DNA of 64,000 nucleotides. Origin: Naegleria gruberi (lineage: Eukaryota). The notes beneath the pieces were generated by a model. It made no database searches. It saw nothing but the letters and a program-made list of their open reading frames with translations, and had not been told where the DNA came from. Positions within the stretch are counted from its first letter, which is position 1. Every line of letters starts with the position of its first letter. Below are positions 6,343 through 22,752 of the stretch, piece after piece. Where the stretch lies: NCBI GenBank assembly GCA_000004985.1, contig GG738873.1; one strand, written 5' to 3'. The position numbers were made by a program, and so were the translations under genes.

Positions 6343-9300
6343 ATGATAATGTATCTAATATTTATTATATTTCTTTGTCAATATTTATCATCATCAACAT
6401 CAACACCATCATTGGGTGGATTAATATTTATTAAGGCAGAACAAACAAGAGTCAATAAGAGACAACAAGATGATACAAGTTTTATCTATCCAACCTATAC
6501 TTCGGAACTCTATGCAGGTAGAACTGATTTCAGTTCATCTATGGACATTTTCTTTAAACAAATGATTCCATCACAGGTGGATTCTAGAATTATCTACATG
6601 TCCTCGAAACTCACCAATTCAATCTATCAATATAATGACACTGATAAGAGTTTGATACAGATATTGCAAGGGAGCTATATAGAAGGGGAGGACACCTTAG
6701 TAAATGGTGATTTACTGATGGTTGAGAAGGAAGAAGTCAATTCTATTCAGTATGATTGTTTATATTATAATATTGAATCTAGAATGTGGAAATATTCAAT
6801 GAGGGACAGAACATCTTCTCGATTAACTGTTTATGGATTGGAACAAGTTTCAAAATTGGGTGTCAATAGACCTTTCGGATTTTTGGATTGGGGAAAGAAG
6901 AATCGAGTGTATGGAGTAGTGGAGGGGAAATTATTTCATGTAGAAAGGGAATACAATTTGACTTGGAATTTCACACAAGTTAAGGAGCTTGATTTGGAAA
7001 ATACTCAATGGGAAGGTTTGGCCATGCATAAAAACAGTGAAATTATGTACTTGATTGCAAATCGTACAATTTTCATGGTTGACATGAGCAAGGACTTGTT
7101 CATTAAGAAATTACAAACTCATGAAAGTCCCAAAATACCTTTTGCTGTTTATCACGATGGACAAGATGAGTATCTTTACTTTACTGCCAATTACGATTCG
7201 ATTTTGGTAAAGTGTCCAACTAAGGAATGCGATAGTGCTCTACCCATCTATACTAGAGACGAAATGATTAGGTCAGGATGGAAAATATTGAGCATTCCGT
7301 CAGCATTTGCCATTACAAAAGATGTTTTCCTATTCAATTCGTATTTTCCAAGGAGGGATGATATTACACACCTTGCACTTTATTCAATGATGGATAATGT
7401 TGCCTATCCAATTTACTCAATGGATGGTCCTATTTGGAATGGTGTTAATGCTTTGAACAGTTCTATATTTCCAACAGGTAAGTTTACAAATTTTTGCCAA
7501 ATTACTATAAATATACAGCGGTAAACTTACTAAAACATGCTGATGGAAGAAAGGAATTGCTTATTAGTGATTATACGAAAATTAGATCAATCTCAATGAA
7601 AGATAGAACCATTTCAGTGGTAAAGGTAGACAATTTGTGCACTTCTTTCACACCACAACTGCCTGCACTCTCCAATATTGGCTCTTCGGTCAACCATTCT
7701 GATGGCAGCTCTACCATATACGCTGCTTCCATTCCAGATACTAATGCACAGTCTTACTCTATCAAAATAGCATCTAATGGGCACACTACGTGGTGTCCTC
7801 TCTCAACAGATATTGAGAACATACCAGTGCCTAATGAGAGCCCTCTGAATCAATCCATGTTTAATGATCCTTCTGGTATTGTCTATTTGAATGGAGAAAT
7901 TTATATTGCTGATACAAAATCCAATAGAATCAGAAAGATTACAAAAGATGCAAGAGTATTGACCTTAGTTGGAGGTGGTAATATTAAGGGAGATAACTTG
8001 ACAGGAACTGATACCTATGCGAATGCCCCTTTCGGTATTGCTGTTTGCAATTCAACAGGAAACGTTTATTTTAGTGTTTCTAACGACCATTGTCTCAAAG
8101 TCTACTCTCAACAAACAGGTCTTGTTCAAAACCTTGCAGGAGATTGTGGAAAACCAGGAATATTTAATTTTCCAAAAGCAATTTCATTGGTGGAGAATTT
8201 CCTCTTTGTTGCCGATTCAATGAATCATAGAATTGCGAGGGTTAATTTAGAGACACGTTTAGTGGAGAGTCTAATTGGAGATGGACAAGCAGGTGAGACA
8301 TCAGACGACAACTATAGCGTAAGATTGAATTCACCAACTGGGGTTCACTATTGTGATGGATATTTATTTGTAGCAGACACTAATAATCATAGAATATTGA
8401 AGGTTTCTCATATACTTGATGTAACAAGTTATGCATACGTTGAAGTCATAGCAACAGGTAAGTTAAAAATTTACATTTTTGGAATATTGACAAAATTACT
8501 AAAAATAGATGATGATGTGAAATTGGCATATCCATATGGTGTTCATGCTTTCAAGATGGGTTACAAAATGTTTTATATCATTACCAATACATATAACAAC
8601 AGATTAATCTTTGCACAAGAAACTCCTTCAAGATATTTCACAGAAATGGGAAGTGGATTGCCAGGTTACAATGGAGACCTTTCCATATTTGAGGCAAGTC
8701 TTTTCAATCCAAAGGGAGTCTGGGTATCTGACAACATTATCTATTTTACCGATTCATCAAATAACCTGATTCGAAAAATCAACTTGTCTCGATTATATTT
8801 TATGGTTGAAACTGTAGCTGGTGGGCATGGTGATGGTGGCTCAATTTTGAATACTCGTATCAAGATTACAAGTTTCTCTCAAGCTCCTGGAGGGATTGTT
8901 GTGACTGATATTCAAAACAACCTGATCAGATTGATAAAACAAGATGGAACTGTCTCTACACTTGTTGGAAGTGGTGGCACACTTTACAATGGAGAGCTAA
9001 TAACTTCCAAGATGGTTAATTTAAATTACCCTTTTGGAGTTTTTGTTTTCAATAATGAAATATACTATTCTGATTCCAAGAATCTGAGAATAAGAAAAGT
9101 GGATCTAGATGGAATCGTCTCAACTGTGATACTCGACGGTAGCTATCCTTCAGCTCTCAGAGTTAGACTTAATGGTGACATAATTTATGTTACTCAAACA
9201 GGAATTAAGATTTTCCATGCCAAAACAAGTGAATTCCAAAATATTGTAACAGACAGCAATTTTCTCAAAGCATCTGTTGAGTACGATTCAGATGATGGTT

Positions 9301-11196
9301 CGATTTATTATGCAACAGATACTTCTGTTGTCAAGTTGACTCCAAGATGTAAGAATGGTTATGTGTTGGATGACCAATTTTCTGAGTGTATTCCAGTATG
9401 TTTCGGATATAATCAATTGGATGTGGAACAAGTTTGTTCTGGACATGGATTGTGTCTAGAGCCAGATAACTGTGGATGTTTTGACCATTACACGGGTAAT
9501 CAATGTGAAAATGCCAAATGTTTCGGTCTTGATGTTAATAATCCAAATATTTGTAATGGAAGAGGTCAATGTGTCTCAGTTGACACCTGTTCATGCTCCC
9601 AAGGCTATTCAGGAATTGACTGTTCCATTCCAGAATGTTTCGGAATCTCTGGAAACATGTCATGTAGTGGATCAGAAAGAGGTAGATGCATTTCACTCAA
9701 CATGTGTCACTGTAATTTGCCTCATTATTCTGGAAGAGCATGCGAGTTAGCAAACTGCTTTGGAATTCCACAAAATGATGCAAAAGTTTGCTCTGGAAAG
9801 GGAAGATGTGTCCGTCCTAACGAATGCAAGTGTGATACTGATTTTTATGACAAGGATTGTTCCAAGTTTGATAATACGAATTGGACAGTTGGAGTTGTTG
9901 TGGGAATTACAGGCGGTTTTGTTATTTTGTTGATGATTGTTGGAGTTGTGTTGATTGTAGTGTTGAGAATTTATAAGAAACAAAAGAAAATATTGGACAC
10001 TGACCTCGAATTGGATCGACAATTGTTGAGTTCTGAAGAAATCAATGGTTATTCTCGTGGTCATACTTCAAATTCAAGTAATAGTGTGGAGGAAGATTTT
10101 TATATCCCACTGAATCAATTAAATATGGACAAACCAATTAAGAGATTGGGAAGTGGTGGTATTGGAAGTGTATTCATGACAAAGTAAGTGTTAAATTTTG
10201 CCTAAATTCTAACTTTTTCATCAATCTTATTTTGAAATATTTCCAAAGATGGAATAATATCATTGTAGCGGTCAAAGTGTTTGATTTGAATAATGAAAAC
10301 ATTGGAATTGAAGATTTTATCAATGAGGCCTTATTACTCTCAAGACTTCGTCATCCAAATATTATTTCTTTTTATGGAGTTTCTTCATCTCCAACCAAAA
10401 GATACATTGCCATGGAGTGTATGGATGCAAGCTTGGAATCCTATATTCAGAAAATGCAAGCATTGCAGTTAAAGCTTCCATTCCGTACAAAAGTGAAAAT
10501 TATTTCAGATATTTGCAGAGGTATCATGTATCTTCACAATTTACAACCAAATTTTATTGTTCACAGAGATTTGAAACCTGCAAATATTTTACGTAAGTTT
10601 ATTTGATTTTTGACATGACTCTAATGTGAGTGAAATAGTTGATAAGGATGGCAATTGTAAAGTTTGTGATTTTGGTTTGGGAAGAGTTTTATCAAAAAAA
10701 ACACTTTCGAATATTACAGCACAGGTTAGTACATTCAAACTATTTCGAATGATTATTTAACTGTATATAGATTGGCACATGTGCATACATGAGCCCAGAA
10801 ATCTCAGGATTCTCTGGTAAGGATATTGATCGTTCACACGTTAAGGCAATTGATATCTTTAGTTTATCCATAATTTTCTATCAAATATTATTCGAAGTGA
10901 TGGATCCATACTCGAGTCAAGATTTGAGAGTGGTGGAAAAGATTGGACTTAAGGAACCAATTCATTATGAATCTTTTTATCATTTGCATAGAGCCATTTG
11001 TGAATTCAAAGTTCGACCTTCAATTCCATTCAATACTATTGAGTCGTGTGTGGAGTGGTGTAAAGTTTATGATTTGGAAGAGAATGCAACAATTTATTGG
11101 AAATTATGTGAAGATGTTATAAAGGAATCATGGAAAGAAGAAGCTTCCGAAAGACCTCCTATTGAAAAATTGGTAGAAATTGTTGATTCATTGTAA
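6343..11196 (+). CDS. Receptor-type Ser/Thr kinase: signal peptide, NHL-repeat beta-propeller, tenascin-type EGF repeats, TM segment and TKL-like kinase domain (5 exons)
   Basis: Exon structure: join(6343..7477, 7519..10183, 10249..10592, 10639..10724, 10771..11196). The 41-nt intron 7478..7518 (GTAAGT..ACAG) is required to fuse two long ORFs that sit in different frames. Introns 10184..10248 (GTAAGT), 10593..10638 (GTAAGT) and 10725..10770 (GTTAGT) restore kinase subdomains: GSGGIGSVFMTK|WNNIIVAVK, HRDLKPANIL|LDKDGNCKVCDFGLGRV, and ITAQ|IGTCAYMSPE. The signal peptide is MIMYLIFIIFLCQYLSS. NHL motifs (NxPxGIAV, IYIADTxNxRIRKI) are repeated. EGF units read CSGHGLCLEPDNCGCFDHYTGNQC and similar. 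The TM segment is VGVVVGITGGFVILLMIVGVVLIVVL. Confidence 0.8.
8458..8508 (+). other. Candidate in-frame 51-nt intron (or retained intron) inside the NHL region of the kinase gene
   Basis: The stretch gtaagttaaaaatttacatttttggaatattgacaaaattactaaaaatag has a perfect GTAAGT donor, an AG acceptor and an AT-rich body. Its length is a multiple of 3 with no stop, so the ORF track reads straight through it (GKLKIYIFGILTKLLKI). Confidence 0.35.
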
Positions 11197-11222
11197 ACTG
11201 TTATAAATAAATATTTAAAAAA

Positions 11223-13073
11223 ATGTCATCATTGATAGATTGTGACAACACCTCTCAACACTATGAATATCTCCCCGAACAGCAATTACACTCACTAAAA
11301 ATCACACCAAATCATGATCACCAACCTTCTACAGCAAGAATTTCACTTCCCGTGATGAATACTCATGATGAGAATATTCAAATTGAAATTAATTCTGATG
11401 ATTATAATATTGATGAGATTAGTGTCGTGTTCTCGGGAGGAAATTTATCCGTGAACAAATGTTACTTGAAGGTGAAGAAGAAGTGTAATGAAAGGTTTGT
11501 TGTGAAATTGAGAGAATTGGAATGTTGTGATTTGATAATTATGAATGAATCGAAAGGGAAGATTGTGTTGGAATATGATTGTTTAATATTAAATCGATTG
11601 GAAATTTCGAATAACCAACAAGAAGAAGAAACGGTAGTGGAAAATCATAGTGATGTTGATTTTTGTGAATTGATAATTGGAGACGGTTGTCAATTTGAGA
11701 ATTATGCCAACTTGCAAGTGTTGAATTTATTGAAGGGTGAAGGATTGGTTAGAAATTTGGGAATGATGTTTTTTGGAAAGGATGTAGAAATCGAGTTGAA
11801 TAATTTGGAAAGTGTTGGAATTGTCAAATTTCCACAATTAGAAAGTTTTGTAAAAGAATTTAAATTAATTAATGGCGAAAGTGAACAAAATTTTACAGAA
11901 CCATTGCCTAGAGGATACAATTATCTCAACAGAGTTGCCCTTTTGAAGGGACTGATAGGGAAGAATACTAAAACCAAAAAACCACAAATTCTCTCCGACT
12001 CAATTCTAGAATATTTAAAGGAAAATCCTGTTAATTCATCAGATGATTTATCTGAGAAGGTGAATGAATATCTATTGAGAGTAGGTGGTACTGAGTACGT
12101 CTCTACATGGGTCTCAACTATTGCCCCGAATATTAGAAAAACACCATCCGCACAAGGTGAAATAAGTGAAAAATTAGAACCATGGACCACTGTTAATGTC
12201 AAATCGATTTATTGTGGAGCTGGAGAGAATGAATTCTGGGCATGCTTGGGAGAAGAGGCCTTTGTATCAACAGATTTTTTGAAAATTAAGCCAAAAGTCA
12301 ATCATCTACTCTATCCTAACATGAAAGGGAGTGATTTACTATCAATCTATGGACCGAACGAACCATTCCTCAACGATAACTTGAAAAATCAATCCAATCA
12401 AGAAATCATTGTTGTAAATACTCCAATATTGGACAGTAATTTACAGTCTATTGGAGAAAAACTTGCTGGAGATTTGGTAACGGTTTATGAATTTACTGAA
12501 ATTAATGGAAAATCACTTGTAAAAATATCTCCTGATGAGGAACATTATATTGAATCGGATTATCTTTCCTCTGAGATGGATAAGAATCTCCTCAATAGGA
12601 ATATTCGAGCATTCCTCGAATTAATTGCCTTTTGTGAAGCTACCTATACATTCGGATACAATCGACTCGTGAATGGAACACCAACCACTGATCCATTCCA
12701 AACATGCTACTCACACGGCATTGTCAATATCACAAGTAATCTCAATACTCATCCGTTCATTCTCGTCTCCCTTAATGCCACTCTAAAATCAACAGCAGCT
12801 GGAAAATATCAATATTTGAATAGAACTTGGCATTCCCTCCCTAAAGAAATTCACAACAATCTCTTTACACCATATGGACAAGACAGAGGAGCCATTGCAC
12901 TTTTAATGAGACGTGAAAGTCTTCAAGCCATCAAACAAGGCAATATTGAACTGGCCCTTAATTTATGTAATAAGGAATGGGCAAGTTTTCCAAACTCACC
13001 ATATGGTCAACCCACTAAAAAGATGGAAGAATGCTTGAAAAAATATTCAGACTTTCTATCAAGATTACAATGA
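11223..13073 (+). CDS. Hypothetical 616-aa protein; the C-terminal ~170 aa resemble the C-terminal lobe of phage T4-type (GH24) lysozyme
   Basis: ATG 11223 is the first codon after an in-frame TAA at 11208, and the ORF ends at TGA 13071-13073. The C-terminus reads ...DRGAIALLMRRESLQAIKQGNIELALNLCNKEWASFPNSPYGQ. This compares with T4L ...[30 protein letters not shown]. An FCEATYTFGY segment is a possible catalytic-Glu region. The resemblance is weak and the N-terminal 400 aa are unassigned. The gene starts only 26 nt after the stop of the preceding kinase gene. Confidence 0.65.
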   Translation: MSSLIDCDNTSQHYEYLPEQQLHSLKITPNHDHQPSTARISLPVMNTHDENIQIEINSDDYNIDEISVVFSGGNLSVNKCYLKVKKKCNERFVVKLRELECCDLIIMNESKGKIVLEYDCLILNRLEISNNQQEEETVVENHSDVDFCELIIGDGCQFENYANLQVLNLLKGEGLVRNLGMMFFGKDVEIELNNLESVGIVKFPQLESFVKEFKLINGESEQNFTEPLPRGYNYLNRVALLKGLIGKNTKTKKPQILSDSILEYLKENPVNSSDDLSEKVNEYLLRVGGTEYVSTWVSTIAPNIRKTPSAQGEISEKLEPWTTVNVKSIYCGAGENEFWACLGEEAFVSTDFLKIKPKVNHLLYPNMKGSDLLSIYGPNEPFLNDNLKNQSNQEIIVVNTPILDSNLQSIGEKLAGDLVTVYEFTEINGKSLVKISPDEEHYIESDYLSSEMDKNLLNRNIRAFLELIAFCEATYTFGYNRLVNGTPTTDPFQTCYSHGIVNITSNLNTHPFILVSLNATLKSTAAGKYQYLNRTWHSLPKEIHNNLFTPYGQDRGAIALLMRRESLQAIKQGNIELALNLCNKEWASFPNSPYGQPTKKMEECLKKYSDFLSRLQ

Positions 13074-13168
13074 AAATCAAAAACTATTAAATCAAAATTT
13101 TTCAAACATCTTTTGCCCTCACATGGATGAGCACAAACGGAGAAGTAAAAATAAAACTTTAAAAAAAA

Positions 13169-13999
13169 ATGAGAATCTTGTCCGTACTTGCAAAATCCAA
13201 AACTTTAATTTCCTTCCACAACTCGGCAGCCAAATCATCGTCATCACTGCTTTTCGGAAAACAAATAAAGAAAAATGGAAATTTAATTAAGAATATTCAA
13301 TACAATTATCAACAGGAGAGAAATATATTTATTAGAACAAAGGAAACACCAAATCCTGCCAGTATTCAATTTTATCCTATGGAAGTGAAAGTGCTGGATG
13401 AGAAGGTGTATCCAGACATTTCTTCATTGGAAATTACTAATCCGTTGCAATCATATGTATCTCCTCTTGCCAAGACACTTTTTAAAATTGATGGAGTGAA
13501 GAGTGTATTTCTCTGTAGAGATTTTCTTACTGTAACAATTGATGATCCAACCAATTGGACCGATGTAAAACATGATGTATTCTCAAGTTTGAATAACTTT
13601 TTTGAGAGTGGAGGTATTGTATTAAATAGAGATGCTCAACCAAATCCTGATACAATGGTTCAGGAAGGAGATGATGAAATAATTATTGCAGTGAAGGAAA
13701 TTTTGGAAACTAGAATTCGTCCTATGGTTCAAGAAGATGGTGGTGATATTGTATTTTCGAGATTTGATGAAGAAACTGGTACTGTTTATGTCAAATTACA
13801 AGGAAGTTGTGCCAGTTGTCCAAGCTCTACAGAAACCTTAAAGAATGGTATTGAAAATATGCTCATGCATTATATTGCAGAAGTGAATGCTGTAGAACAA
13901 GAATTGGACGAATTAGATCAAATTAGTGAAGATCAATTGAAAAAGACTGAAGAAAAGCTTGCCAAAGAAAAGGAAATTATTGATCATTATACTAAATAA
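13169..13999 (+). CDS. NFU1: NFU1-type iron-sulfur cluster scaffold protein (mitochondrial)
   Basis: The 276-aa ORF has a presequence-like N-terminus. It carries an Nfu_N domain (TPNPASIQFYPMEVKVLDE...) and a NifU C-domain with a CxxC motif (YVKLQGSCASCPSSTETLKNGIENML). Confidence 0.9.
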   Translation: MRILSVLAKSKTLISFHNSAAKSSSSLLFGKQIKKNGNLIKNIQYNYQQERNIFIRTKETPNPASIQFYPMEVKVLDEKVYPDISSLEITNPLQSYVSPLAKTLFKIDGVKSVFLCRDFLTVTIDDPTNWTDVKHDVFSSLNNFFESGGIVLNRDAQPNPDTMVQEGDDEIIIAVKEILETRIRPMVQEDGGDIVFSRFDEETGTVYVKLQGSCASCPSSTETLKNGIENMLMHYIAEVNAVEQELDELDQISEDQLKKTEEKLAKEKEIIDHYTK

Positions 14000-14141: not shown

Positions 14142-15773
14142 TTAAGCAATAAAGCAAACAGTTGTAATATCATCGAACTTGCCACCAAGTTGGCCAATCG
14201 CAACAGCGAATGGTGTTCTGGCCCATCTATTGAGTGCAACAGTTCTGGCTTCAAGAGTTACTCTTCTAGCCAACTCGCAAGCTTGCAATTCACCTCCAGG
14301 AGTACCTTGAGAAGAATTGGCAAGTAAATTATCTTTCATGTCCCATATTAAATTTCCAACAGATTCTGGGAAGAGATTATCCCAAACGCCATCAGTTGCC
14401 ATCACAAGAACATCATCCTTTTCCAATTTGATTTCTTCATCAACAGCATGTTCTGGCAAATCATGGTAGGCGGTACTATTCCCTGGTGGAACAACACCAA
14501 GTTGGAATGGACAATTGAAATAATGTTGTTTTTCCTTAGTTTGGAAAATACAGGCTCCTTCTCTAAAAACTGCAAGGCCTGAATCTCCCAAGTTAGATGT
14601 TCTCAAAATTTTAGTATTCTTGTCGTAGGAAGCAATCGAAGCTGTGGTACTTCCAGCAAGAACTTGTCTTTCATTTACAATTAAATCATATGCCATTTGT
14701 AAAATCTTGTTTGGATTACTCAAAAGTTGGCTATCACCACCCTCACAAACAAGTTTGGCATTGTACATGAGCTGGTTACTGATGAGAGATGGATCAACTC
14801 CAACCTCGGCCCAACCTCCAACACCATCAGCAACACCAATAATTGTATAATTATCATTCTCAAAAGTGAAGAAGGCATCTTCTCCGCATTGTTCCTTATA
14901 ATCAGAAGAATCTAATGATTTTGGTGCAGCAAATTTCTTTCCAACTCCAAAACCACATGCTTGTTTGGCATGACTCTCAATGGTAAAATCAAATTCGGAA
15001 GGTATTGAAGCACCAACAGGTTTTTCTTGTTGTTGTTGTTTTCTGTACAAATATTGTGGTACGTCACTAGTAGTGGATGGTTTAGCATTCTGAACACAGG
15101 TATTTAAATTATTGTAGGATTGGTATTTGAGTGGGATCATTCCTAGGAGAGATGAATGGAAATGTTTAAAAATGTTGTTAGTAGAGGTATTAGTTGTGGT
15201 GGTGGTGGAGGAAACTGTCCAATTGCTATTATTAAACAAGTGGGTTGGCAAAACTGATCGAACTAAACTATGACTATTACTTAAAGCCTTTGAAGCAAGA
15301 CAAGTTGTAGTTTTTTGAAACATGGGTTCAGAAGCTTGATCTGATGAAGGTAAATCCGACTGAGAAGTTGTAGTAGAGGTACAAAACAAGTCCTTGTATT
15401 TTTTGTTTTGTTGTTCTGCTGCTGCTTCAGAGTGGATGAATAAAGTTGCTGCTGTTGTTGTAGCTGGTGTGTTGAGTGTTAAATTATTGCTCTTACTGCC
15501 TGCTGCTGAATGTTGAAAGGAGGAAATGGATAAATTATCTTCTTCTTCTTCAATAAAATCGAATAAATCTTCAATGTATTGTGGATGTTGGGAGTAACTT
15601 GGACTGTCTGGGTTTTCAAAAGAGGTATTAGATGGTTTTTGATTAATTTGACTTGTTGCTGCTTCAGAGGTAAAAGTATCAGCACTATTTGTTGCTTTTG
15701 TAGGGGTTAGCAAGGATGAGAATGGAAAACTATTTGAAGAAGGTAGAGACAATGATTGGTTTTGAGAGGCCAC
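14142..15773 (-). CDS. PP2C-family (PTC7/SpoIIE-like) protein phosphatase with a long N-terminal Ser/Thr/Asn-rich low-complexity extension
   Basis: The C-terminal catalytic region carries the motifs GVADGVGGW, GSTTASIASYD, NLGDSG, ATDGVWDNL and DDITTVCFIA. The ORF-track start at 15773 is GTG. The first in-frame ATG is at 15323 (MFQKTT...). The open frame upstream of 15773 has no ATG and is preceded by a strong acceptor-like ttcttcacttcag, so the 5' end is unresolved. Confidence 0.8.
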   Translation of the reverse strand: MASQNQSLSLPSSNSFPFSSLLTPTKATNSADTFTSEAATSQINQKPSNTSFENPDSPSYSQHPQYIEDLFDFIEEEEDNLSISSFQHSAAGSKSNNLTLNTPATTTAATLFIHSEAAAEQQNKKYKDLFCTSTTTSQSDLPSSDQASEPMFQKTTTCLASKALSNSHSLVRSVLPTHLFNNSNWTVSSTTTTTNTSTNNIFKHFHSSLLGMIPLKYQSYNNLNTCVQNAKPSTTSDVPQYLYRKQQQQEKPVGASIPSEFDFTIESHAKQACGFGVGKKFAAPKSLDSSDYKEQCGEDAFFTFENDNYTIIGVADGVGGWAEVGVDPSLISNQLMYNAKLVCEGGDSQLLSNPNKILQMAYDLIVNERQVLAGSTTASIASYDKNTKILRTSNLGDSGLAVFREGACIFQTKEKQHYFNCPFQLGVVPPGNSTAYHDLPEHAVDEEIKLEKDDVLVMATDGVWDNLFPESVGNLIWDMKDNLLANSSQGTPGGELQACELARRVTLEARTVALNRWARTPFAVAIGQLGGKFDDITTVCFIA

Positions 15774-16775: not shown

Positions 16776-18296
16776 ATGCTAAGTAACAATAATAATATCA
16801 AAGTAGAAGAAGAAATTTTGAATGAGTCCAATATTCAACAAGAAGAATCACTCTTCCTTGAAAAACCAAAGAGAAGACAAGGAAAGAAGAGTGTCAAGCT
16901 TGTAGAAGAACCTATTATTGCTGCTTCTACATCTTCAGAAGATACCAATAATAACAATGATAACGAAGAAGAAGAAGAAGAAGCAGATGATGAATATTCC
17001 GCAGATGACATCTCAGCAGGTACTCATGGTAGTAATCCTTCTAGACAATGGCAAAAGGATGACACTTTTAATAATCAAGCAGGTTATTGCATCTCTGTGG
17101 GTATTACTACCCGTGATGAAAGTTTACCAATTTATGACACTCCTTGCAAAATGTACTCTAGTTTACGTTACAAGCTTCAATATAAGTGTGTCATTGTCAC
17201 ATCAGGATTGTCTGCCAGTTCAACTCCTAAACTCTTAATGTGTCGTGTCACAGTCATTGATGAAGAAACTAGTAAGGAAATTAAGAAAGATAACAAACCA
17301 ATCATTGATGATTCTCTCATTTCACTCAAATGCACAAGTACAAATGCCACTGCTGGTCAATCATTGGTATTTGAAGCCAATCACAAGATTAAATTCAAGA
17401 GTGTTTCATTCCATCATAATAAGAGCAAGTGGAGATTATTACTTCAACTCTTCTCTGACTCTAACCAAAGCATTAATACACCAGTACTTGTCATTAAGAG
17501 TGCTCCATTCCAAGTATACGCAAGAAGACCAAAGGTTTCTGAAAGAGATTCCACCAATGGTCTCCTCACCTCTACACCAGTTCCAACATCAAAGGAAGAA
17601 AAGAAACAAAAGAAGAAGAAGAATGAATTAAAAAAGAGAAAGAGATCTGCCTCAATGGCTAGTAAGGACATTGCTCCTCCAAAGATAGAAAAGCCATCCA
17701 CTGATGAAGAAACTAATGCACCAACCATTCCAATAGTATCAACTGAATCTTGTATTGCAAGTTCATCCAAGGATGCTCCAATCATTACTGAACCAACCAT
17801 TGCCAGCTCATCAACTTCAACCACCACATCTGATCCAACTCTTGTCAAGGAAGAACCAATCTCTCACACTGAAACCAAGACCTCCATCAAACAAAAGAAA
17901 AAGCTCCTTGATAACTTTTCCAAGACACTTGATACTCTCTTAAAGTTCCACTCAGAGATGGACGATGACAGTAAGAGACTTGCATTTGAAATGTTGCAAC
18001 AAAGAATGTACAATCACTTTTATTCTGATTTGGTGCAGCAACATGAATGGATGGCCCAACAAATGGCAATTCAACATCAACACCAACAAATGCAAGATAA
18101 CTTGTCGCCCCAAAATATTGAAACAGACCATGCTGTTCTTGAAGCTGGTTCTGCAGATGATATCATTGTTCAATGTGATAATGAATCTACCCACTATAAT
18201 GACCATATGGAACATGATCACTTTTTGAACATGTGTGACAGTGGCTCATTCGAAGATAATATGATTTTACACAATGATTACCATCCATTTATTTAA
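16776..18296 (+). CDS. Hypothetical nuclear protein: acidic N-terminus, beta-rich central domain (possibly p53-like/NDT80-like fold), basic NLS cluster
   Basis: The 506-aa ORF runs from ATG 16776 to TAA 18296. An acidic stretch reads NNNNDNEEEEEEADDEY. The central segment ...KFKSVSFHHNKSKWRLLLQLF...PVLVIKSAPFQVYARRPK is reminiscent of DNA-binding beta-sandwich factors. A KKQKKKKNELKKRKRS segment looks like an NLS. ORFs nested in other frames were ignored. The domain call is speculative. Confidence 0.65.
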   Translation: MLSNNNNIKVEEEILNESNIQQEESLFLEKPKRRQGKKSVKLVEEPIIAASTSSEDTNNNNDNEEEEEEADDEYSADDISAGTHGSNPSRQWQKDDTFNNQAGYCISVGITTRDESLPIYDTPCKMYSSLRYKLQYKCVIVTSGLSASSTPKLLMCRVTVIDEETSKEIKKDNKPIIDDSLISLKCTSTNATAGQSLVFEANHKIKFKSVSFHHNKSKWRLLLQLFSDSNQSINTPVLVIKSAPFQVYARRPKVSERDSTNGLLTSTPVPTSKEEKKQKKKKNELKKRKRSASMASKDIAPPKIEKPSTDEETNAPTIPIVSTESCIASSSKDAPIITEPTIASSSTSTTTSDPTLVKEEPISHTETKTSIKQKKKLLDNFSKTLDTLLKFHSEMDDDSKRLAFEMLQQRMYNHFYSDLVQQHEWMAQQMAIQHQHQQMQDNLSPQNIETDHAVLEAGSADDIIVQCDNESTHYNDHMEHDHFLNMCDSGSFEDNMILHNDYHPFI

Positions 18297-18879
18297 ATGA
18301 CCCAATTGTTGGGTCATGTAATGGTGATCCACAATTTTTGTACAGTATATTGTTAACTAACTGAAATATTTCGGCCTTTTTCCATATGTTGTAAATAAAC
18401 ATGAGTATCCTTTTAATTATTATTAATTAGAACAATTTTTTTAATGCAATTGTAAATGTTTGGAAAGTGCATCATACCTTCTTAACAGTTCCAAAAACTT
18501 CTCTATTTCACCATTTATGGATCCTCAAATTTCTGCTTCCCACATCTAACAAATTGGTCTTTTTGCAATTCTATTGACAATGAAAGAAGTTGTTTCTAAA
18601 AGCTAGAAAATTATCTGGATATCTGAATATCTCGTTCATTTTGTATTGAATAAACTTCAATATTGTGCCATTCACATTGTCACAAATAACACTACTTCAA
18701 ACTTTCTTTGCAGTGCTCACTCATGTTCATAAACAACCGTTTGAAACTTGAACAAGTACATGAATGAGATTGCAAGTCCGATCTTTATATTGGCAACTGA
18801 ACTCCATGGAGAGTAGTATCTTGTGCCCGACCTTTCCTTGTGGAGAGACCAAGAACAAAGACCAATAACTTTCAAAAAA

Positions 18880-21800
18880 ATGGACAAATTGAAACTCAAC
18901 AACACTAATAGCTCAACATTCTTGCTACTATTGTTGTTTTTGCACTTGTTGTTTCTTGCTGCCCAACCAATTGTCCACGGTCAATCTTTATACCATGTAA
19001 AAACCATAGCAGGTAGTTATCCCTATGGTTACAATGGTGATGACATTGAACCTACCAAGGCAGAAATCACCCTACCTGATGGTCTTGCACTCTCTCCAAG
19101 CAACAATGGTGACATTTTCATAGTTGACAAGATAAATTGTCGAGTGAGACAAGTAGTGGCAAGTAGTGGTAAAATTAAAACAATTGTTGGTGTGGGTATT
19201 CCTGGTTCTGTCACGACAACTATAGCAACTATGGCTCGTTTGAATTATCCTAGTGCACTTGCTTTTCAGAACAGTGATGTCATGTACTTGTCTGATAATA
19301 GTCATGTTATTCGAAAGGTAGTATTATCTAGTAATTTGATTAGTACATATGCTGGTCAAGTTGGTGTACCAGGGAGTATTGGAGATGATGGAGTAGCTAT
19401 CAATGCACTGTTGAATACACCAAGTGGAATTGCCATCTCTCCTGTGAATAATAATTTATATATTGCAGATACCTCAAATAACAAAATTCGTGTGGTTTCG
19501 TATACGGATGGTATCATTAGAACATTTGCTGGAGGTGGAACAGATACATCCACTGTGGTACAGGATGCAACTAATGCACAGTTTAACTTCCCCACTTCCA
19601 TTGCAATCTCTAATAGTGGAGAAGTTTACATTGGCGATGACAAGATTAGAAAGGTGTTCAATAATGGCACCAGTGTACTTCTGTTCACTTCTTTTGGACT
19701 CTCTGGCCAGACTAATACAGTTTATGGAATGGCAGTATCTCCAATAACTGGTGCTCTCTATGTTACTGTTTCAGATAGAGTATACATGATTCAATCGAAT
19801 GGAGTTGCAACATTAATAGCTGGATCAGGAGCTGGCTATGCTGGAGACAATCAATTGGCATCCAATGCCATGTTCAGAGTCACAAGAGGCATTGCTATAT
19901 CCTCAAGTGGGGAGATTTTCATTTCTGATGGTGGAAATAACAGAGTTAGAAAGATTAACACCAACAATATCATCGCCACCGTAGCTGGAACAGGTTCCAA
20001 TCTTGCCTACAATGGTGATAATATTGAGGCAGTGAAGGCAAAACTCTTTGGCCCAGAATCGGTTGCTGTCGCTCCAAATAATGAGGTTATTGTGGCCGAC
20101 ACAAGAAATGATAGATTGAGAAAGATTTCACTTGGTGGAATAATCACAACCATTACTCCAAGTTATAGTTCACCCAGATCTCCTCTCGTGCCCAATGTAG
20201 GGGAGTACTATTTTGTTGATTCGTCAACTGTGAAATATCTCATATCTTCTAGTGGCATTGTAATAACTAAAGCTGGATCTGGAACTACTGGATACAATGC
20301 TGATAACATTCCCGCTACAAGTGCTCATTTAAATTTTCCAAAAGGAATTGCCAGATCCACAAATGGAGATTTGTTCATTACCGATTCTGGAAATCATCGA
20401 ATTAGAAAAGTGTTTTTAAATCAGACCATCATTACTGTAGCTGGTACTGGTACTTCTGCCTACAATGGAGATGGGCTATTAGCAACTAGTGCCAATATTA
20501 ATAATCCATATGGAATTGTACTGACCTCTAATAATGAAGTTATTTTTTCAGAGTATGAAGGCCATCGAGTGAGAAAAATTCTCAATGATGGAACCCTCAT
20601 TACCATTGCAGGAACTGGGGTGGATGGGTATAGTGGGGAGAATTTGAGCGGTTCTAATTCAATGTTGAGATATCCTGCTGGTCTTGCCATTTTATCCAAT
20701 GATGAACTATTGATTTCTGATTCCCAAAACCATGCCATTAGGAAATTATTTAAGAATGGAACTTTGATAACCATTGCTGGTACTGCACCACTGTATGGAT
20801 ACAATGGTGAGAATTTGCACCCTTTGGAAACTCAATTTTATGGACCAATGGGTGTAGCTCTATCTGCTGATGAATCTAAAATTTTCATTGCTGACACAAG
20901 TAATGGAAAGGTGAGAGCGATCTCTTTTGGTTGTGACCTACAGAATCAATGTAGTGGGCATGGAGATTGTGCAGTGAACAATTGTTCGTGTTATTCTGGT
21001 TGGAGAGGAAGTTCTGATTGCTCTCTCTTCTCATGTGAAACATTGAATGCCTGCTCTGGACTTGGTACATGTGTGAGTAATAATACATGCTCATGTACTA
21101 GTGGATGGAAGGGAAGCCTCGATTGTTCCCACTTCTCATGTGAAACATTGAACAATTGTTCAGGGCATGGTGCATGTGTAGGTCCCAATACATGTTCATG
21201 TGATTTGGGGTGGAAGGGAAGCCTCGATTGTTCTTTCTCATGTGAAAAATTGAATGCCTGCTCTGGACATGGTGTCTGTGTGAGCAATAATACGTGTGTT
21301 TGCGATTCTGGTTGGAAGGGAAGTCTGGATTGCAATCTCCCTTCCTGTGAAATGTTTAAAAATTGTTCAGGACATGGCTCTTGTTTGAGTAGTAATACAT
21401 GTTCGTGCTTGAGTGGATGGAAGGGAAGCCTAGATTGTTCCCTATTCTCTTGTGATGCTGTGAAAAATTGTAGTGGAAATGGAACATGTACATCAAGTAA
21501 TGGTTGTTCATGCCTGGAAGGATATGGTGGATTGAGTTGTGATAATAGAATTGTTCCTCCTACCTATGTCTCTCCACTTGCATCCAAGAATGGTCCAGTT
21601 ACTACTACAGGTAATTCTAACATTGGATTGATTGTTGGATTGGTTGTGGGTTTAACATTATTGGTATTGTTAATATTGCTTGCAATCATTGTTACCATCT
21701 GTCTCATTGTGAAATTAAAGAAGAAGAAAAGCAAACCACTGGTTACTAATGAAGAACCAATTGAAATGATAACAACCATTGATGAAAATGTTACTCAAAC

Positions 21801-22752
21801 AGCCAATAGTTCATTACTTACCTCAGATTTCCCAAGCGATACCTTTAACAATTCCTATTACCAGTTGAATTCTTCCAATACTAACACAAGTGCTACTTCT
21901 CCTCCTCAAAACACAGATCATTCTTTGCTCAAAGATAGATACAAGATTCAACAAGTTATTGGTCAAGGTGCATTTGGTAAATGTTATCTCTGTTTGGATT
22001 CTAAAAAGAATGACATGCCAGTTGCCATCAAGACTATTAGTTATGATCAAAGTAGACATTCTAAAATTATTGATGAATGTTCCAAAACACTTTCATACAG
22101 ACATGCAAATCTGGTTGAAGTATATGAATTCTTTGAAGCACAGATTATTCAATCTATTTGTATTGTAATGAAATTTTATGAAGGCGACTTGGAACATGCC
22201 TTGAAAGATTTGAAACAAGATGGAAAGATTGTCTCTGAGAAGATGATCATCTCCATCATGAAACAACTTGGAGATGGTTTGAACTATCTTCACCAAGAGA
22301 AACTAATTGTTCACAGAGATATCAAACCACGTAATATTTTCTACAGTAAATTGGACCGTGAATTGGATGAAATCCAAGTGGTTATTGGTGATTATGGAGA
22401 GGCAAAGGAAACTGGAGAAACTCAAAATTCAGTTGCAGGAACATTGCAATATATGGCGCCTGAGGTCTTTTCTAGAAAATACAGTTATAGTGCTGATATA
22501 TTTTCACTTGGAGTTTCACTCATTCAGGCCATGGCAAATGAATCCTTAGATTTAAACATTACAGCTCAATTATTATACGATAAGGAAGAAGTGGTGTTGG
22601 ACAGAACAATGGAACACTTGATATCAAGAGGTTACTCTGAGAAGCTTTGCAATTTTATTGTGACTATGGTCTCAAAGGAACCGAGTATGAGACCAACAAG
22701 TGCTGACATTCAAAATTTCACTCAAGATGATGGTGCCGAAAAGAGCATTTAA
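18880..22752 (+). CDS. Receptor-type Ser/Thr kinase 2: signal peptide, NHL-repeat propeller (many blades), 7 near-identical tenascin-type EGF repeats, TM segment, kinase domain
   Basis: The first ATG is at 18880 (MDKLKLNNTNSSTFLLLLLFLHLLFLAAQPIVHG). The track start at 18823 is GTG. The ORF is continuous to TAA 22750-22752. NHL motifs repeat (YNGD..A..A.LNxPxGIA...YIADTSNNKIRV). EGF units read CSGHGxCVSNNTCxCxSGWKGSLDC. The TM segment is IGLIVGLVVGLTLLVLLILLAIIVTICLIV. Kinase motifs are VIGQGAFGKCYL...VAIK, HRDIKPRNIF, IGDYGEAKE and GTLQYMAPE. Confidence 0.85.
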   Translation: MDKLKLNNTNSSTFLLLLLFLHLLFLAAQPIVHGQSLYHVKTIAGSYPYGYNGDDIEPTKAEITLPDGLALSPSNNGDIFIVDKINCRVRQVVASSGKIKTIVGVGIPGSVTTTIATMARLNYPSALAFQNSDVMYLSDNSHVIRKVVLSSNLISTYAGQVGVPGSIGDDGVAINALLNTPSGIAISPVNNNLYIADTSNNKIRVVSYTDGIIRTFAGGGTDTSTVVQDATNAQFNFPTSIAISNSGEVYIGDDKIRKVFNNGTSVLLFTSFGLSGQTNTVYGMAVSPITGALYVTVSDRVYMIQSNGVATLIAGSGAGYAGDNQLASNAMFRVTRGIAISSSGEIFISDGGNNRVRKINTNNIIATVAGTGSNLAYNGDNIEAVKAKLFGPESVAVAPNNEVIVADTRNDRLRKISLGGIITTITPSYSSPRSPLVPNVGEYYFVDSSTVKYLISSSGIVITKAGSGTTGYNADNIPATSAHLNFPKGIARSTNGDLFITDSGNHRIRKVFLNQTIITVAGTGTSAYNGDGLLATSANINNPYGIVLTSNNEVIFSEYEGHRVRKILNDGTLITIAGTGVDGYSGENLSGSNSMLRYPAGLAILSNDELLISDSQNHAIRKLFKNGTLITIAGTAPLYGYNGENLHPLETQFYGPMGVALSADESKIFIADTSNGKVRAISFGCDLQNQCSGHGDCAVNNCSCYSGWRGSSDCSLFSCETLNACSGLGTCVSNNTCSCTSGWKGSLDCSHFSCETLNNCSGHGACVGPNTCSCDLGWKGSLDCSFSCEKLNACSGHGVCVSNNTCVCDSGWKGSLDCNLPSCEMFKNCSGHGSCLSSNTCSCLSGWKGSLDCSLFSCDAVKNCSGNGTCTSSNGCSCLEGYGGLSCDNRIVPPTYVSPLASKNGPVTTTGNSNIGLIVGLVVGLTLLVLLILLAIIVTICLIVKLKKKKSKPLVTNEEPIEMITTIDENVTQTANSSLLTSDFPSDTFNNSYYQLNSSNTNTSATSPPQNTDHSLLKDRYKIQQVIGQGAFGKCYLCLDSKKNDMPVAIKTISYDQSRHSKIIDECSKTLSYRHANLVEVYEFFEAQIIQSICIVMKFYEGDLEHALKDLKQDGKIVSEKMIISIMKQLGDGLNYLHQEKLIVHRDIKPRNIFYSKLDRELDEIQVVIGDYGEAKETGETQNSVAGTLQYMAPEVFSRKYSYSADIFSLGVSLIQAMANESLDLNITAQLLYDKEEVVLDRTMEHLISRGYSEKLCNFIVTMVSKEPSMRPTSADIQNFTQDDGAEKSI
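20933..21543 (+). repeat. Tandem ~93-96-nt coding repeats (7 units) encoding tenascin-type EGF modules
   Basis: The units CETLNACSGLGTCVSNNTCSCTSGWKGSLDCSHFS, CETLNNCSGHGACVGPNTC..., CEKLNACSGHGVCVSNNTC... and the rest are highly similar at the DNA level. The antisense ORF track shows the same periodicity (RLPFHPKSHEHVL repeats). Confidence 0.7.

What the first reader, a model, noticed from the sequence alone, without database searches (positions are those of the whole stretch)
6343..22752. Two paralogous receptor Ser/Thr kinases with teneurin-like (NHL propeller + tenascin-EGF) ectodomains, 7.7 kb apart on the same strand
Both genes encode signal peptide, multi-blade NHL beta-propeller, tenascin-type EGF array, single TM segment and cytoplasmic kinase. 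The kinases carry HRDLKPANIL/CDFGLGRV and HRDIKPRNIF/IGDYGEAKE cores, so they are Ser/Thr (TKL/STE-like), not tyrosine kinases. NHL plus tenascin-EGF is the ectodomain logic of teneurins, but here it is coupled to a kinase. The second copy has expanded its EGF array into seven near-identical DNA repeats. This points to a lineage-specific receptor-kinase family that may sense an extracellular ligand. I know of no described family with this domain order.
Basis: partly seen in the sequence, partly recalled or inferred. Interest (0 to 1): 0.65.

Follow-up and report, generated by a model that had tools for sequence, protein, structure and literature searches.

The report
Naegleria NHL–EGF receptor Ser/Thr kinases
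Two genes of the amoeba Naegleria gruberi each encode a single-pass membrane receptor with beta-propeller (NHL) and EGF-like modules outside the cell and a serine/threonine kinase inside; they belong to an uncharacterised, Naegleria-specific modular receptor family, but they carry kinases of two different classes rather than being simple duplicates.

Summary
The architecture is real. The window is Naegleria gruberi NEG-M. Gene 1 (6343-11196, at least 4 short GT-AG introns) and gene 2 (18880-22752, one ORF) each encode signal peptide, NHL propellers, teneurin-type EGF array, one TM segment and a catalytically intact Ser/Thr kinase.

Three details are wrong or overstated:
- The two genes are only about 25% identical. 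Gene 1's kinase is TKL (CTR1/Raf/TAK1-like). Gene 2's kinase belongs to a separate Naegleria/Willaertia-specific clade nearest ULK/NEK/CAMK.
- The EGF array of gene 2 has six units at 49-78% DNA identity, not seven near-identical ones.
- The true close paralogue of gene 2 is NAEGRDRAFT_68566, elsewhere on the scaffold. Its kinase is 99.6% identical, and it has three EGF units instead of six.

The gene-2 kinase clade holds many NHL(-EGF)-TM-kinase proteins in N. gruberi, N. fowleri and N. lovaniensis. All are annotated as hypothetical, and I found no paper on them. Gene 1 has no identical protein in a 5.8-billion-protein collection, so it appears unannotated.

The closest analogues are M. tuberculosis PknD (NHL sensor plus STK, reversed order) and teneurins (NHL plus EGF, no kinase). 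Neither membership test is met.

Verdict: a new variant of a known kind (a lineage-specific protist receptor kinase), of moderate interest. Ligand and function are inferred only.

The parts
6343..11196 (+). Gene 1: NHL-EGF-TM-TKL kinase. Exons 6343-7477, 7519-10183, 10249-10592, 10639-10724, 10771-11196 (1551 aa). An alternative in-frame ATG lies at 6295.
   Evidence: Manual splicing with canonical GT-AG, frame kept. The spliced product gives a full Pkinase match plus NHL and EGF_TEN. No identical protein in the 5.8-billion-protein collection.
6343..6408 (+). Gene 1 signal-peptide-like N-terminus (MIMYLIFIIFLCQYLSSSTSTP).
   Evidence: Read from the sequence. No dedicated signal-peptide predictor was available.
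6409..7838 (+). Gene 1 N-terminal extracellular region of about 460 aa, unassigned fold, predicted all-beta.
   Evidence: No Pfam hit. No hhalign match to the NHL profile. No homologue found. AlphaFold single-sequence model has pLDDT 41.
7839..9347 (+). Gene 1 NHL beta-propeller region (about 10 blade motifs).
   Evidence: Pfam NHL E=4e-16. 32% identity to N. gruberi NHL-EGF protein NAEGRDRAFT_72780. tblastn to gene 2 and to L002.
8458..8508 (+). Candidate fifth, in-frame, stop-free intron of gene 1 (51 nt, CAACAG|GTAAGTT...AAATAG). Unresolved.
   Evidence: The donor context is identical to intron 1. Removal would leave a 13-aa inter-blade loop where other blades have 24-27 aa.
9399..9860 (+). 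Gene 1 EGF-like array, four six-cysteine units.
   Evidence: Regex and Pfam EGF_TEN / EGF_2 / EGF_Teneurin.
9882..9974 (+). Gene 1 transmembrane segment, followed by the basic stretch RIYKKQKK.
   Evidence: Kyte-Doolittle peak 3.04.
10137..11172 (+). Gene 1 kinase domain (TKL group), interrupted by three introns. GSGGIG, VAVK, HRDLKPAN, DFG and SPE are present.
18880..22752 (+). Gene 2: single-exon NHL-EGF-TM-kinase, 1290 aa. Equals XP_002676184.1 / EFC43440.1 (D2VI20), 'NHL repeat-containing protein' of N. gruberi NEG-M.
   Evidence: 100% identical hit P0001. Pfam.
18880..18981 (+). Gene 2 signal peptide (hydrophobic core FLLLLLFLHLLFLAA).
   Evidence: Kyte-Doolittle peak 2.45.
18982..20925 (+). 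Gene 2 NHL region: 12 four-stranded blades, most likely two six-bladed propellers.
   Evidence: Pfam NHL 7e-43 and TEN_NHL 1.9e-34. AlphaFold model, pLDDT mostly above 85 over the blades. Foldseek and phmmer hits to BiTLP, SOQ1, NHLRC2, teneurin and PknD NHL domains.
20932..21540 (+). Gene 2 EGF-like array: six units of about 35 aa (105 nt), 49-78% pairwise DNA identity.
   Evidence: The paralogue NAEGRDRAFT_68566 lacks exactly 104 aa (three units) here.
21622..21711 (+). Gene 2 transmembrane segment, followed by KLKKKKSK.
   Evidence: Kyte-Doolittle peak 3.4.
21940..22713 (+). Gene 2 kinase domain (Naegleria/Willaertia-specific Ser/Thr kinase clade). GQGAFG, VAIK, HRDIKPRN, DYG and APE are present.

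Best explanation
These are two separate genes of Naegleria gruberi, and they are not tandem duplicates. Each encodes a type I single-pass receptor-like Ser/Thr kinase.

Architecture (shown): the N-terminal ectodomain is built from NHL beta-propellers. Gene 2 has 12 blades, probably 2 x 6. Gene 1 has about 10 blades plus an unassigned all-beta N-terminal region of about 460 aa. The propellers sit on a membrane-proximal stalk of disulfide-rich teneurin/tenascin-type EGF units (4 in gene 1, 6 in gene 2). One TM helix, a short juxtamembrane segment and a catalytically complete kinase follow.

Evolution (shown): the kinases are of different origin. Gene 1 is TKL (CTR1/Raf/MLK-like). Gene 2 is a heterolobosean-specific clade of 'Other'-type Ser/Thr kinases near ULK/NEK/CAMK. 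An NHL-EGF ectodomain cassette is abundant in Naegleria surface proteins, with or without kinases, and one NHL protein carries an RGS module. This cassette has been joined to at least two kinase classes by domain shuffling. The EGF stalk changes length by unit gain and loss: 0, 1, 3, 4, 6 or 9 units among relatives.

Mechanism (inferred, not shown): the propellers bind an extracellular macromolecular ligand, such as a microbial or environmental surface molecule or another cell's surface. Binding clusters or dimerises the receptor. The cytoplasmic kinases then trans-phosphorylate their Ser/Thr-rich activation segments and signal to the cytoskeleton or to transcription.
For: - Organism and gene identity.
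- Domain content: Pfam; hydrophobicity; cysteine-pattern counts.
- Structure: AlphaFold model with 12 confident four-stranded blades. Foldseek matches NHL propellers of SOQ1 (TMt 0.71), BiTLP, NHLRC2 and teneurins, and tandem-propeller sensor domains of Bacteroides hybrid two-component systems and LRP6.
- One transcript: a single ORF in gene 2. In gene 1 the exon 7519-10183 carries NHL, EGF, TM and the kinase G-loop.
- Kinase classes: gene 1's best PDB hits are CTR1 (8e-30), TNNI3K, B-Raf and TAK1. Gene 2's best are CDPK, MST3, NEK7 and ULK1, and a family profile puts ULK/CDPK/NEK at about 1e-44 with no TKL or TK among the best hits. In the NJ tree gene 1 groups with CTR1/EDR1/THESEUS1 at 100% bootstrap, and gene 2 sits in a separate clade at 83%. 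Kinase 1 versus kinase 2 is 26% identity, 57 bits.
- Catalytic residues are all conserved.
- Family: the gene-2 clade contains NHL(-EGF)-TM-kinase proteins of N. gruberi (NAEGRDRAFT_68566, 50593, 58454, 70624), N. lovaniensis (C9374_004148, 010785, 010803, 012036) and N. fowleri (FDP41_002843). It also contains TM-kinases with unassigned ectodomains, including one from Willaertia magna.
- Relatives in a metagenome: colinear homologues of both genes occur on contigs of 34-35% GC (L001: 41% identity over aa 14-1280; L002).
- Receptor-like evolution: the kinase is more conserved than the ectodomain. Gene 2 versus P0003 is 65% (kinase) against 43% (NHL). Gene 2 versus NAEGRDRAFT_68566 is 99.6% against 94.4%.
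- Modular use of the cassette: NHL-EGF proteins without a kinase (P0035, P0025) and an NHL protein with RGS (P0036).
Against: - There is no expression, localisation, ligand or activity data for any member.
- The signal peptides and the topology are inferred from hydrophobicity and the positive-inside rule only.
- Gene 2 and its closest relatives have DYG instead of DFG. This is conserved, but its effect on activity is unknown.
- The EGF part of the AlphaFold model has low confidence (pLDDT below 50).
Gene 2's group is therefore 'unassigned', not positively classified.
- Gene 1 has no matching annotated protein. It could be unexpressed, although it is intact.
- The three-unit EGF difference from NAEGRDRAFT_68566 could in principle be a mis-predicted intron in that public model.
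Confidence: 0.75

Rival explanations
1. One reading: the two genes are paralogues from duplication of one ancestral NHL-EGF-kinase gene, and they have since diverged in place.
For: Same domain order, same strand, 7.7 kb apart. BLASTP aligns them over NHL, EGF and kinase (E=4e-49).
Against: Overall identity is only about 25%. The kinase domains are 26% identical (57 bits). Gene 1's kinase scores 116 bits against plant CTR1. Gene 2's kinase scores 126-190 bits against other Naegleria receptor kinases. The tree separates them with 100% and 83% bootstrap. Four unrelated genes lie between them: a lysozyme-like gene, a NifU-type gene, a PP2C/SpoIIE-type gene and one of unknown function. Gene 2's real close paralogue is NAEGRDRAFT_68566, outside the window.
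Confidence: 0.1
2. They are mainly adhesion or phagocytic-recognition molecules, with NHL-EGF used as in teneurins. The kinase domain would be weakly active or a pseudokinase scaffold, so they would not act as ligand-activated signalling kinases.
For: Naegleria has many NHL-EGF surface proteins without any kinase (P0035, P0025). Gene 2's subclade has a DFG-to-DYG change. Some clade members have degenerate motifs: HND in Nfow_003808 and W. magna, and FEI in Nfow_000515.
Against: In both window genes the G-loop, beta3 Lys, alphaC Glu, HRD Asp, catalytic Asn, the metal-binding Asp of D(F/Y)G, APE and the subdomain XI Arg are all intact. The kinase is the most conserved part of the protein.
Confidence: 0.12
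3. They are true teneurin homologues, or a horizontally acquired bacterial PknD-type receptor kinase.
For: Pfam TEN_NHL, EGF_TEN and EGF_Teneurin hits. The best solved relative of the NHL region is the bacterial teneurin-like protein BiTLP (E=2.5e-75), and PknD is also hit (1.8e-7). The top non-Naegleria NHL hits are bacterial or come from metagenomes.
Against: No FN-plug, YD/RHS shell, Tox-GHH or teneurin N-terminal domain was detected. The topology is type I, not type II. The domain order is the reverse of PknD. The kinases are eukaryotic classes, and gene 1 groups with TKL, not with the bacterial kinases P0125 and P0129. Gene 1 has spliceosomal introns, and both genes have eukaryotic neighbours.
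Confidence: 0.03
4. Gene-model artefact: the ectodomain and the kinase are separate adjacent genes fused by reading through.
For: Gene 1 lacks any public protein model. Its kinase needs three introns to assemble.
Against: Gene 2 is one uninterrupted 1290-codon ORF identical to a RefSeq protein. In gene 1 the TM segment, the juxtamembrane region and the kinase G-loop lie in the same exon as NHL and EGF. The same colinear architecture recurs in three Naegleria species and on two metagenome contigs.
Confidence: 0.02

Closest known systems
Mycobacterium tuberculosis PknD (receptor Ser/Thr kinase with a six-bladed NHL beta-propeller sensor; PDB 1RWI/1RWL)
   Same: Single-pass membrane protein that couples an extracellular NHL propeller to a cytoplasmic Hanks-type Ser/Thr kinase. 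The NHL region of gene 2 hits 1rwi at E=1.8e-7.
   Different: PknD has the order kinase-TM-NHL (N-terminus inside the cell), one propeller, no EGF stalk and a bacterial kinase. The Naegleria proteins have the order NHL-EGF-TM-kinase, about 10-12 blades and eukaryotic kinase classes. They look like convergent solutions rather than homologous whole proteins.
Teneurins and bacterial teneurin-like proteins (BiTLP, PDB 9PT5/9IFO; PMC13018210)
   Same: NHL propeller and short six-cysteine EGF repeats of the same Pfam families. The EGF repeats are membrane-proximal and the NHL distal. BiTLP is the best solved NHL relative (2.5e-75).
   Different: No FN-plug or YD-shell superfold, no TTR, ABD or Tox-GHH domain, no teneurin intracellular domain. 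Type I rather than type II topology. A kinase is present. Teneurins have one NHL propeller; gene 2 has 12 blades.
Lineage-specific protist transmembrane kinases (Entamoeba TMKs, amoebozoan and oomycete TMK clades; PMC10463195, PMC2880585)
   Same: Single-pass Ser/Thr-type kinases whose ectodomains are lineage-specific and recombined with more conserved kinase domains. They expand by duplication.
   Different: Those families use other ectodomains, for example cysteine-rich CXXC repeats or LRR. The survey's main text does not mention Naegleria, NHL or EGF.
TKL kinases of the CTR1/Raf/MLK type (gene 1 kinase only)
   Same: Best sequence matches and tree position. HRDLKPAN and CDFGL motifs.
   Different: CTR1, Raf and MLK are cytosolic. 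Here the TKL domain is the tail of a type I receptor. It is also not of the RLK/Pelle type (THESEUS1 69 bits against CTR1 116 bits).
Propeller-EGF ectodomains of LDLR/LRP and the Sevenless/ROS1 receptor tyrosine kinases (from established knowledge)
   Same: A six-bladed propeller followed by EGF modules as an extracellular ligand-binding unit. LRP6 appears among the fold matches.
   Different: Those use YWTD (LDL-receptor class B) blades, not NHL. Sevenless and ROS1 carry tyrosine kinases.

Membership tests
Teneurin | Superfold of FN-plug + NHL + YD (RHS) shell (definition in PMC13018210) | tested here: not met
   Pfam finds only the NHL/TEN_NHL part. There is no YD/RHS, FN-plug, TTR, ABD or Tox-GHH hit at E<=0.01.
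Teneurin | Type II membrane topology with an N-terminal intracellular teneurin domain | tested here: not met
   N-terminal signal-like segment, TM near the C-terminal third, C-terminal kinase.
Teneurin | Array of short six-cysteine EGF repeats next to the membrane | tested here: met
   EGF_TEN, EGF_Teneurin and EGF_2 hits. Four and six units lie directly before the TM segment.
PknD-type bacterial receptor Ser/Thr kinase | Extracellular NHL beta-propeller sensor coupled to a Ser/Thr kinase across one TM segment | tested here: met
PknD-type bacterial receptor Ser/Thr kinase | Domain order kinase-TM-NHL, and a kinase of the bacterial PknB-like lineage | tested here: not met
   The order is NHL-EGF-TM-kinase. 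Gene 1's kinase groups with TKL, away from the bacterial kinases P0125 and P0129. Gene 2's kinase is in a eukaryote-only clade.
TKL kinase group (gene 1 kinase) | Kinase domain closest to the TKL families (Raf/MLK/CTR1/IRAK-RLK), with an HRDLKxxN catalytic loop | tested here: met
   PDB best hits are CTR1, TNNI3K, B-Raf and TAK1. Database hits are CTR1/EDR1. 100% bootstrap with CTR1/EDR1/THESEUS1. No curated kinome reference set was available.
TKL kinase group (gene 2 kinase) | Kinase domain closest to the TKL families | tested here: not met
   For both the single sequence and the family profile, the best PDB hits are ULK1/2, CDPK, STK33, NEK1/2/7, PKR/GCN2, PLK2 and MST3. No TKL chain is among the best 60.
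Plant/animal RLK-Pelle-IRAK receptor kinases | Kinase domain within the monophyletic RLK/Pelle clade | tested here: inconclusive
   Only one RLK (a THESEUS1 homologue) was in the tree. It scores 69 bits against gene 1, versus 116 bits for CTR1, and falls outside the gene 1 + CTR1 clade (65% support).
Receptor tyrosine kinases | Tyrosine-kinase catalytic loop (HRDLAARN/HRDLRAAN) and membership of the TK group | tested here: not met
   The loops are HRDLKPAN and HRDIKPRN. Tyrosine kinases are not the top matches.
TGF-beta/activin receptor Ser/Thr kinases | Activin-receptor three-finger ectodomain and a GS region | tested here: not met
   No such Pfam hits. No TGFBR, ACVR or BMPR chain among the best 60 PDB hits.
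Naegleria/Willaertia NHL-(EGF)-TM-kinase family (informal, gene-2 type) | Kinase in the heterolobosean-specific clade, with a type I topology and a single TM segment before the kinase | tested here: met
   Gene 2 clusters with N. gruberi, N. fowleri, N. lovaniensis and W. magna proteins (83-100% bootstrap). All of them have one TM segment upstream of the kinase. Gene 1 is not in this clade.
Catalytically competent eukaryotic protein kinase | G-loop, VAIK Lys, alphaC Glu, HRD Asp, catalytic Asn, DFG Asp, APE and subdomain XI Arg | tested here: met
   All are present in both genes. Gene 2 has DYG, which is conserved in its subclade. Enzymatic activity cannot be tested with these tools.

The most novel reading that the evidence does not exclude
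Naegleria would have independently invented a receptor-kinase system. An NHL-propeller/EGF-stalk ectodomain cassette, whose nearest relatives are bacterial NHL arrays and which may have been acquired from bacteria, was joined to at least two unrelated kinase classes. It was then diversified, with fast-evolving propellers and variable stalk length, to recognise microbial prey, competitors or other Naegleria cells. This would be a protist counterpart of plant RLK or animal pattern-recognition receptors, and a kinase-coupled parallel to the bacterial-to-metazoan history of teneurins.
Probability: 0.15. Interest if true: 0.7.

Novelty: new variant of a known kind. Interest (0 to 1): 0.4.

Why it matters
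- Heterolobosea are deeply divergent from animals, plants and Amoebozoa. How these amoebae sense prey, surfaces or hosts is largely unknown, and this includes the pathogen N. fowleri, which has members of the family.
- A defined family of surface receptors with intact kinases gives concrete candidates for that sensing.
- The family shows how receptor kinases arise repeatedly, by shuffling a lineage-specific ectodomain cassette onto different kinase classes.
- The NHL-sensor-plus-kinase logic was previously known from mycobacterial PknD. It appears here in a eukaryote, in the opposite orientation and with an EGF stalk.
- Practically, gene 1 appears to be missing from the public N. gruberi protein sets and should be added.
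- This is still a predicted architecture without functional data, and lineage-specific protist receptor kinases are an expected phenomenon.

Tried and rejected
- Contig look-ups. Fetching the N. gruberi scaffold around P0001, P0002 and P0123 failed because those genes are not on record. I therefore could not locate NAEGRDRAFT_68566 or check whether NAEGRDRAFT_32030 (a 303-aa kinase-only model) is a truncated receptor.
- N-terminal domain of gene 1 (about 460 aa). Pfam gave nothing. hhalign against the NHL profile gave probability 0.7%. BLAST against all fetched proteins gave nothing. The database search found no relative. The AlphaFold single-sequence model has pLDDT 41, too poor for a fold search.
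- Fifth intron (8458-8508). I first adopted it on splice-signal grounds. I then downgraded it to unresolved, because removing it makes an atypically short NHL inter-blade loop.
- Literature. Searches for Naegleria plus NHL, kinase, receptor kinase or the protein accessions gave nothing relevant. The protist TMK survey does not mention Naegleria, NHL or EGF.
- Rejected readings: a true teneurin, a horizontally transferred PknD, a tyrosine kinase, a TGF-beta-type receptor, a tandem duplicate pair, and a gene-fusion artefact. Reasons are in the membership tests and rival explanations.
- The top hit of the family-profile PDB search was a chain labelled 'Epidermal growth factor receptor' (9p9u_A, 678 aa). 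I did not interpret it, because the hits that follow it in the list, at only slightly weaker E-values, are Ser/Thr kinases.

Full report
**Source and gene models**

The window is AT-rich (32-39% GC) and eukaryotic. The product of the long ORF at 18880-22752 is 100% identical to XP_002676184.1 / EFC43440.1 (UniProt D2VI20), 'NHL repeat-containing protein' of Naegleria gruberi NEG-M, on a 461,873-bp scaffold.

Gene 2 is a single uninterrupted ORF of 1290 codons from the ATG at 18880.

Gene 1 must be spliced. Exons 6343-7477, 7519-10183, 10249-10592, 10639-10724 and 10771-11196 are joined by four short introns of 41, 65, 46 and 46 nt, with GTAAGT or GTTAGT donors and AG acceptors. This keeps the frame and gives 1551 aa. 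The spliced product matches Pfam Pkinase almost end to end (profile 4-257 of 263, E=2.7e-43). That validates the three introns inside the kinase region.

A further candidate intron lies at 8458-8508. It is 51 nt, in frame and free of stop codons, and its donor context is identical to that of intron 1. Removing it would shorten one NHL inter-blade loop to 13 residues, where the other blades have 24-27. I leave it unresolved.

**Check of the observation**

Both products carry the following features:
- An N-terminal hydrophobic signal-like segment.
- NHL repeats (Pfam NHL E=1.2e-17 and 7e-43; TEN_NHL 1.9e-34 for gene 2).
- Teneurin/tenascin-type EGF repeats (EGF_TEN, EGF_Teneurin, EGF_2).
- One strong hydrophobic segment followed by a Lys-rich stretch.
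- A kinase domain.

The quoted catalytic motifs are present. The spacing (7.7 kb) and the strand are as stated.

The EGF claim fails in detail. Gene 2 has six six-cysteine units (20932-21540) with 49-78% pairwise DNA identity. The four inner units are 69-78% identical. Tandem Repeats Finder reports 4.4 copies at 70% matches. Gene 1 has four units.

**Ectodomain structure**

An AlphaFold model of gene 2 residues 35-900, built on a 26-sequence alignment, shows twelve four-stranded blades with pLDDT mostly above 85. The EGF part is poorly predicted.

Foldseek against the PDB returns NHL propellers: the Bacillus inaquosorum teneurin-like protein, SOQ1 (TMt 0.71), NHLRC2 and the teneurins. It also returns tandem-propeller sensor ectodomains, namely Bacteroides hybrid two-component sensors and LRP6.

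By sequence, the best solved relative is BiTLP (9PT5, E=2.5e-75). This is a bacterial protein (PMC13018210). PknD of M. tuberculosis is also matched (1rwi, 1.8e-7).

Gene 1 has about ten recognisable NHL blade motifs (7839-9347), preceded by about 460 residues that I could not assign. There was no Pfam hit, no profile match to NHL, no homologue, and only a low-confidence all-beta model.

**The kinases**

Both have the full set of catalytic residues. Gene 2 has DYG in place of DFG, and this is conserved in its closest relatives. Both have the Ser/Thr-type HRDxKxxN loop.

They belong to different groups:
- Gene 1's best solved relatives are CTR1 (8e-30), TNNI3K, B-Raf and TAK1. After three close relatives, its database hits are bacterial kinases and plant CTR1/EDR1.
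- Gene 2's best solved relatives are CDPK, MST3, NEK7 and ULK1. A profile of its family scores ULK1/2, CDPK, STK33, NEK, PKR/GCN2, PLK2 and MST3 almost equally (1e-44 to 1e-37), with no TKL or tyrosine kinases among them.

The two kinase domains are only 26% identical (57 bits). Gene 1 scores 116 bits against Ricinus CTR1. Gene 2 scores 126-190 bits against other Naegleria receptor kinases. In a bootstrapped NJ tree, gene 1 and its relatives group with CTR1/EDR1/THESEUS1 (100%), and gene 2 sits in a separate clade (83%). Gene 1's TKL assignment is therefore solid, but gene 2's group is best called unassigned ('Other').

**The family**

An exhaustive HMMER search with the gene-2 kinase, followed by Pfam scans and cluster look-ups, shows that its clade consists of type I membrane kinases from Naegleria and Willaertia.
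- Many members have NHL, or NHL plus EGF, ectodomains: N. gruberi NAEGRDRAFT_68566, 50593, 58454 and 70624; N. lovaniensis C9374_004148, 010785, 010803 and 012036; N. fowleri FDP41_002843.
- Others have unassigned ectodomains: N. fowleri FDP41_008832, 000515 and 003808; W. magna ABK040_007103.
- All are annotated as hypothetical or uncharacterised.
- EGF unit numbers among the relatives examined are 0, 1, 3, 4, 6 and 9.

Gene 2's nearest relative is NAEGRDRAFT_68566, on the same scaffold but outside the window. Identity is 94.4% in the propellers and 99.6% in the kinase. The paralogue has a clean 104-residue gap that removes exactly three EGF units.

A metagenome (ERZ929261) holds colinear homologues of both genes on contigs of 34-35% GC. 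For the gene-2 homologue the kinase is 65% identical, the EGF array 57% and the NHL region 43%. This is the usual receptor pattern of a conserved kinase and a faster-evolving ectodomain.

Gene 1's kinase clade is small. It holds NAEGRDRAFT_32030 (a 303-aa kinase-only model) and two metagenome proteins, one of them with NHL-EGF-kinase.

Naegleria also has NHL-EGF membrane proteins without kinases (NAEGRDRAFT_72780, C9374_010347) and an NHL protein with several TM-like segments and an RGS domain (NAEGRDRAFT_67572). Gene 1's propellers are most similar to the kinase-less NAEGRDRAFT_72780 (32%).

Together this indicates a modular NHL-EGF ectodomain cassette that has been combined with different cytoplasmic signalling domains, including two unrelated kinase classes.

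**Annotation status of gene 1**

Two searches, together covering nearly all of gene 1, retrieved nothing above 54% identity. The same collection returned the 100% match for gene 2. Gene 1 therefore appears to be absent from the public N. gruberi protein sets. By sequence it is intact, with open exons, canonical splice sites and a complete catalytic core.

**Most likely mechanism**

Shown: type I topology by hydrophobicity and charge, an extracellular propeller-plus-EGF architecture, and intact kinase cores.

Inferred:
- The propellers bind an extracellular macromolecule, and the EGF stalk sets their distance from the membrane.
- Ligand-driven clustering allows trans-autophosphorylation of the Ser/Thr-rich activation segments, followed by downstream signalling.
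- For a bacterivorous amoeba, prey or environmental surface molecules, or contacts with other Naegleria cells, are the obvious candidate ligands. Nothing here tests that.

**Comparison with known systems**

The logic matches receptor Ser/Thr kinases in general.
- The specific pairing of an NHL sensor with a Ser/Thr kinase is known from mycobacterial PknD. The domain order is reversed there, the kinase lineage differs, and PknD has no EGF stalk.
- NHL plus EGF recalls the teneurins. The teneurin-defining FN-plug/YD-shell superfold, the toxin domains and the type II topology are all absent (definition in PMC13018210).
- A cross-kingdom survey of protist transmembrane kinases stresses that lineage-specific ectodomains are recombined with conserved kinases. 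Its main text does not mention Naegleria, NHL or EGF (PMC10463195).
- No paper in the searchable library links Naegleria, NHL repeats and kinases, or cites the accessions.

**Verdict**

The architecture is real and the family is lineage-specific and undescribed. However:
- Its members are already in sequence databases as hypothetical proteins.
- The two window genes are not a simple paralogous pair.
- The repeat claim is overstated.
- Receptor kinases with lineage-specific ectodomains are an expected feature of protist genomes.

I rate it a new variant of a known kind, with interest about 0.4.

Noticed in passing
window 11223-13073 (+); the lysozyme-like part is about 12726-13052: The 616-aa ORF directly downstream of gene 1 ends in a domain matching phage lambda lysozyme, the lambda R lytic transglycosylase (PDB 1am7/3d3d, E=1e-18). 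Pfam reported nothing for it. A phage- or bacterial-type muramidase domain in a bacterivorous amoeba may be a horizontal acquisition.
   Followed up: partly
window 6343-11196: Gene 1 has no identical or near-identical protein among 5.8 billion database proteins, although gene 2 from the same scaffold does. It seems to be missing from the public N. gruberi annotations.
   Followed up: partly
window 8458-8508: An in-frame, stop-free 51-nt segment has perfect intron signals (CAACAG|GTAAGTT...AAATAG). Whether it is spliced cannot be decided from sequence.
   Followed up: partly
window 55333-60360 (-): A 1675-aa ORF encodes another surface-type protein. It has teneurin-type EGF repeats, a DSL-like hit, a long Asn/Ser/Thr-rich linker, a REJ domain (E=1e-30) and a C-terminal hydrophobic segment, and no kinase. 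The same kind of EGF array is used in several Naegleria surface proteins.
   Followed up: partly
outside the window, same scaffold: P0002 = NAEGRDRAFT_68566 (XP_002676275.1): A near-identical copy of gene 2 (propellers 94.4%, kinase 99.6%) lacks exactly three EGF units (104 aa). It is either a recent duplicate with a change in stalk length or a mis-predicted intron in that model.
   Followed up: partly
P0036 = NAEGRDRAFT_67572 (other scaffold): A 2103-aa N. gruberi protein combines a long NHL array with several TM-like segments and an RGS domain (Pfam PF00615). It is another signalling output attached to an NHL ectodomain.
   Followed up: no
loci L001 and L002 (ENA ERZ929261, PRJEB11402): Two contigs of about 5 kb from one metagenome, 34-35% GC, carry colinear homologues of gene 2 (41% identity) and gene 1 (37%). 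This points to a Naegleria-like heterolobosean in that sample.
   Followed up: partly
window 13169-13999 (+), 14142-15773 (-), 4423-5886 (-), 23609-24058 (+): The neighbouring genes are unrelated to the receptors: an Nfu/NifU iron-sulfur scaffold protein, a SpoIIE/PP2C-type phosphatase with a long low-complexity N-terminus, a questin-oxidase-like protein and a small GTPase fragment. There is no functional clustering with the receptor genes.
   Followed up: yes
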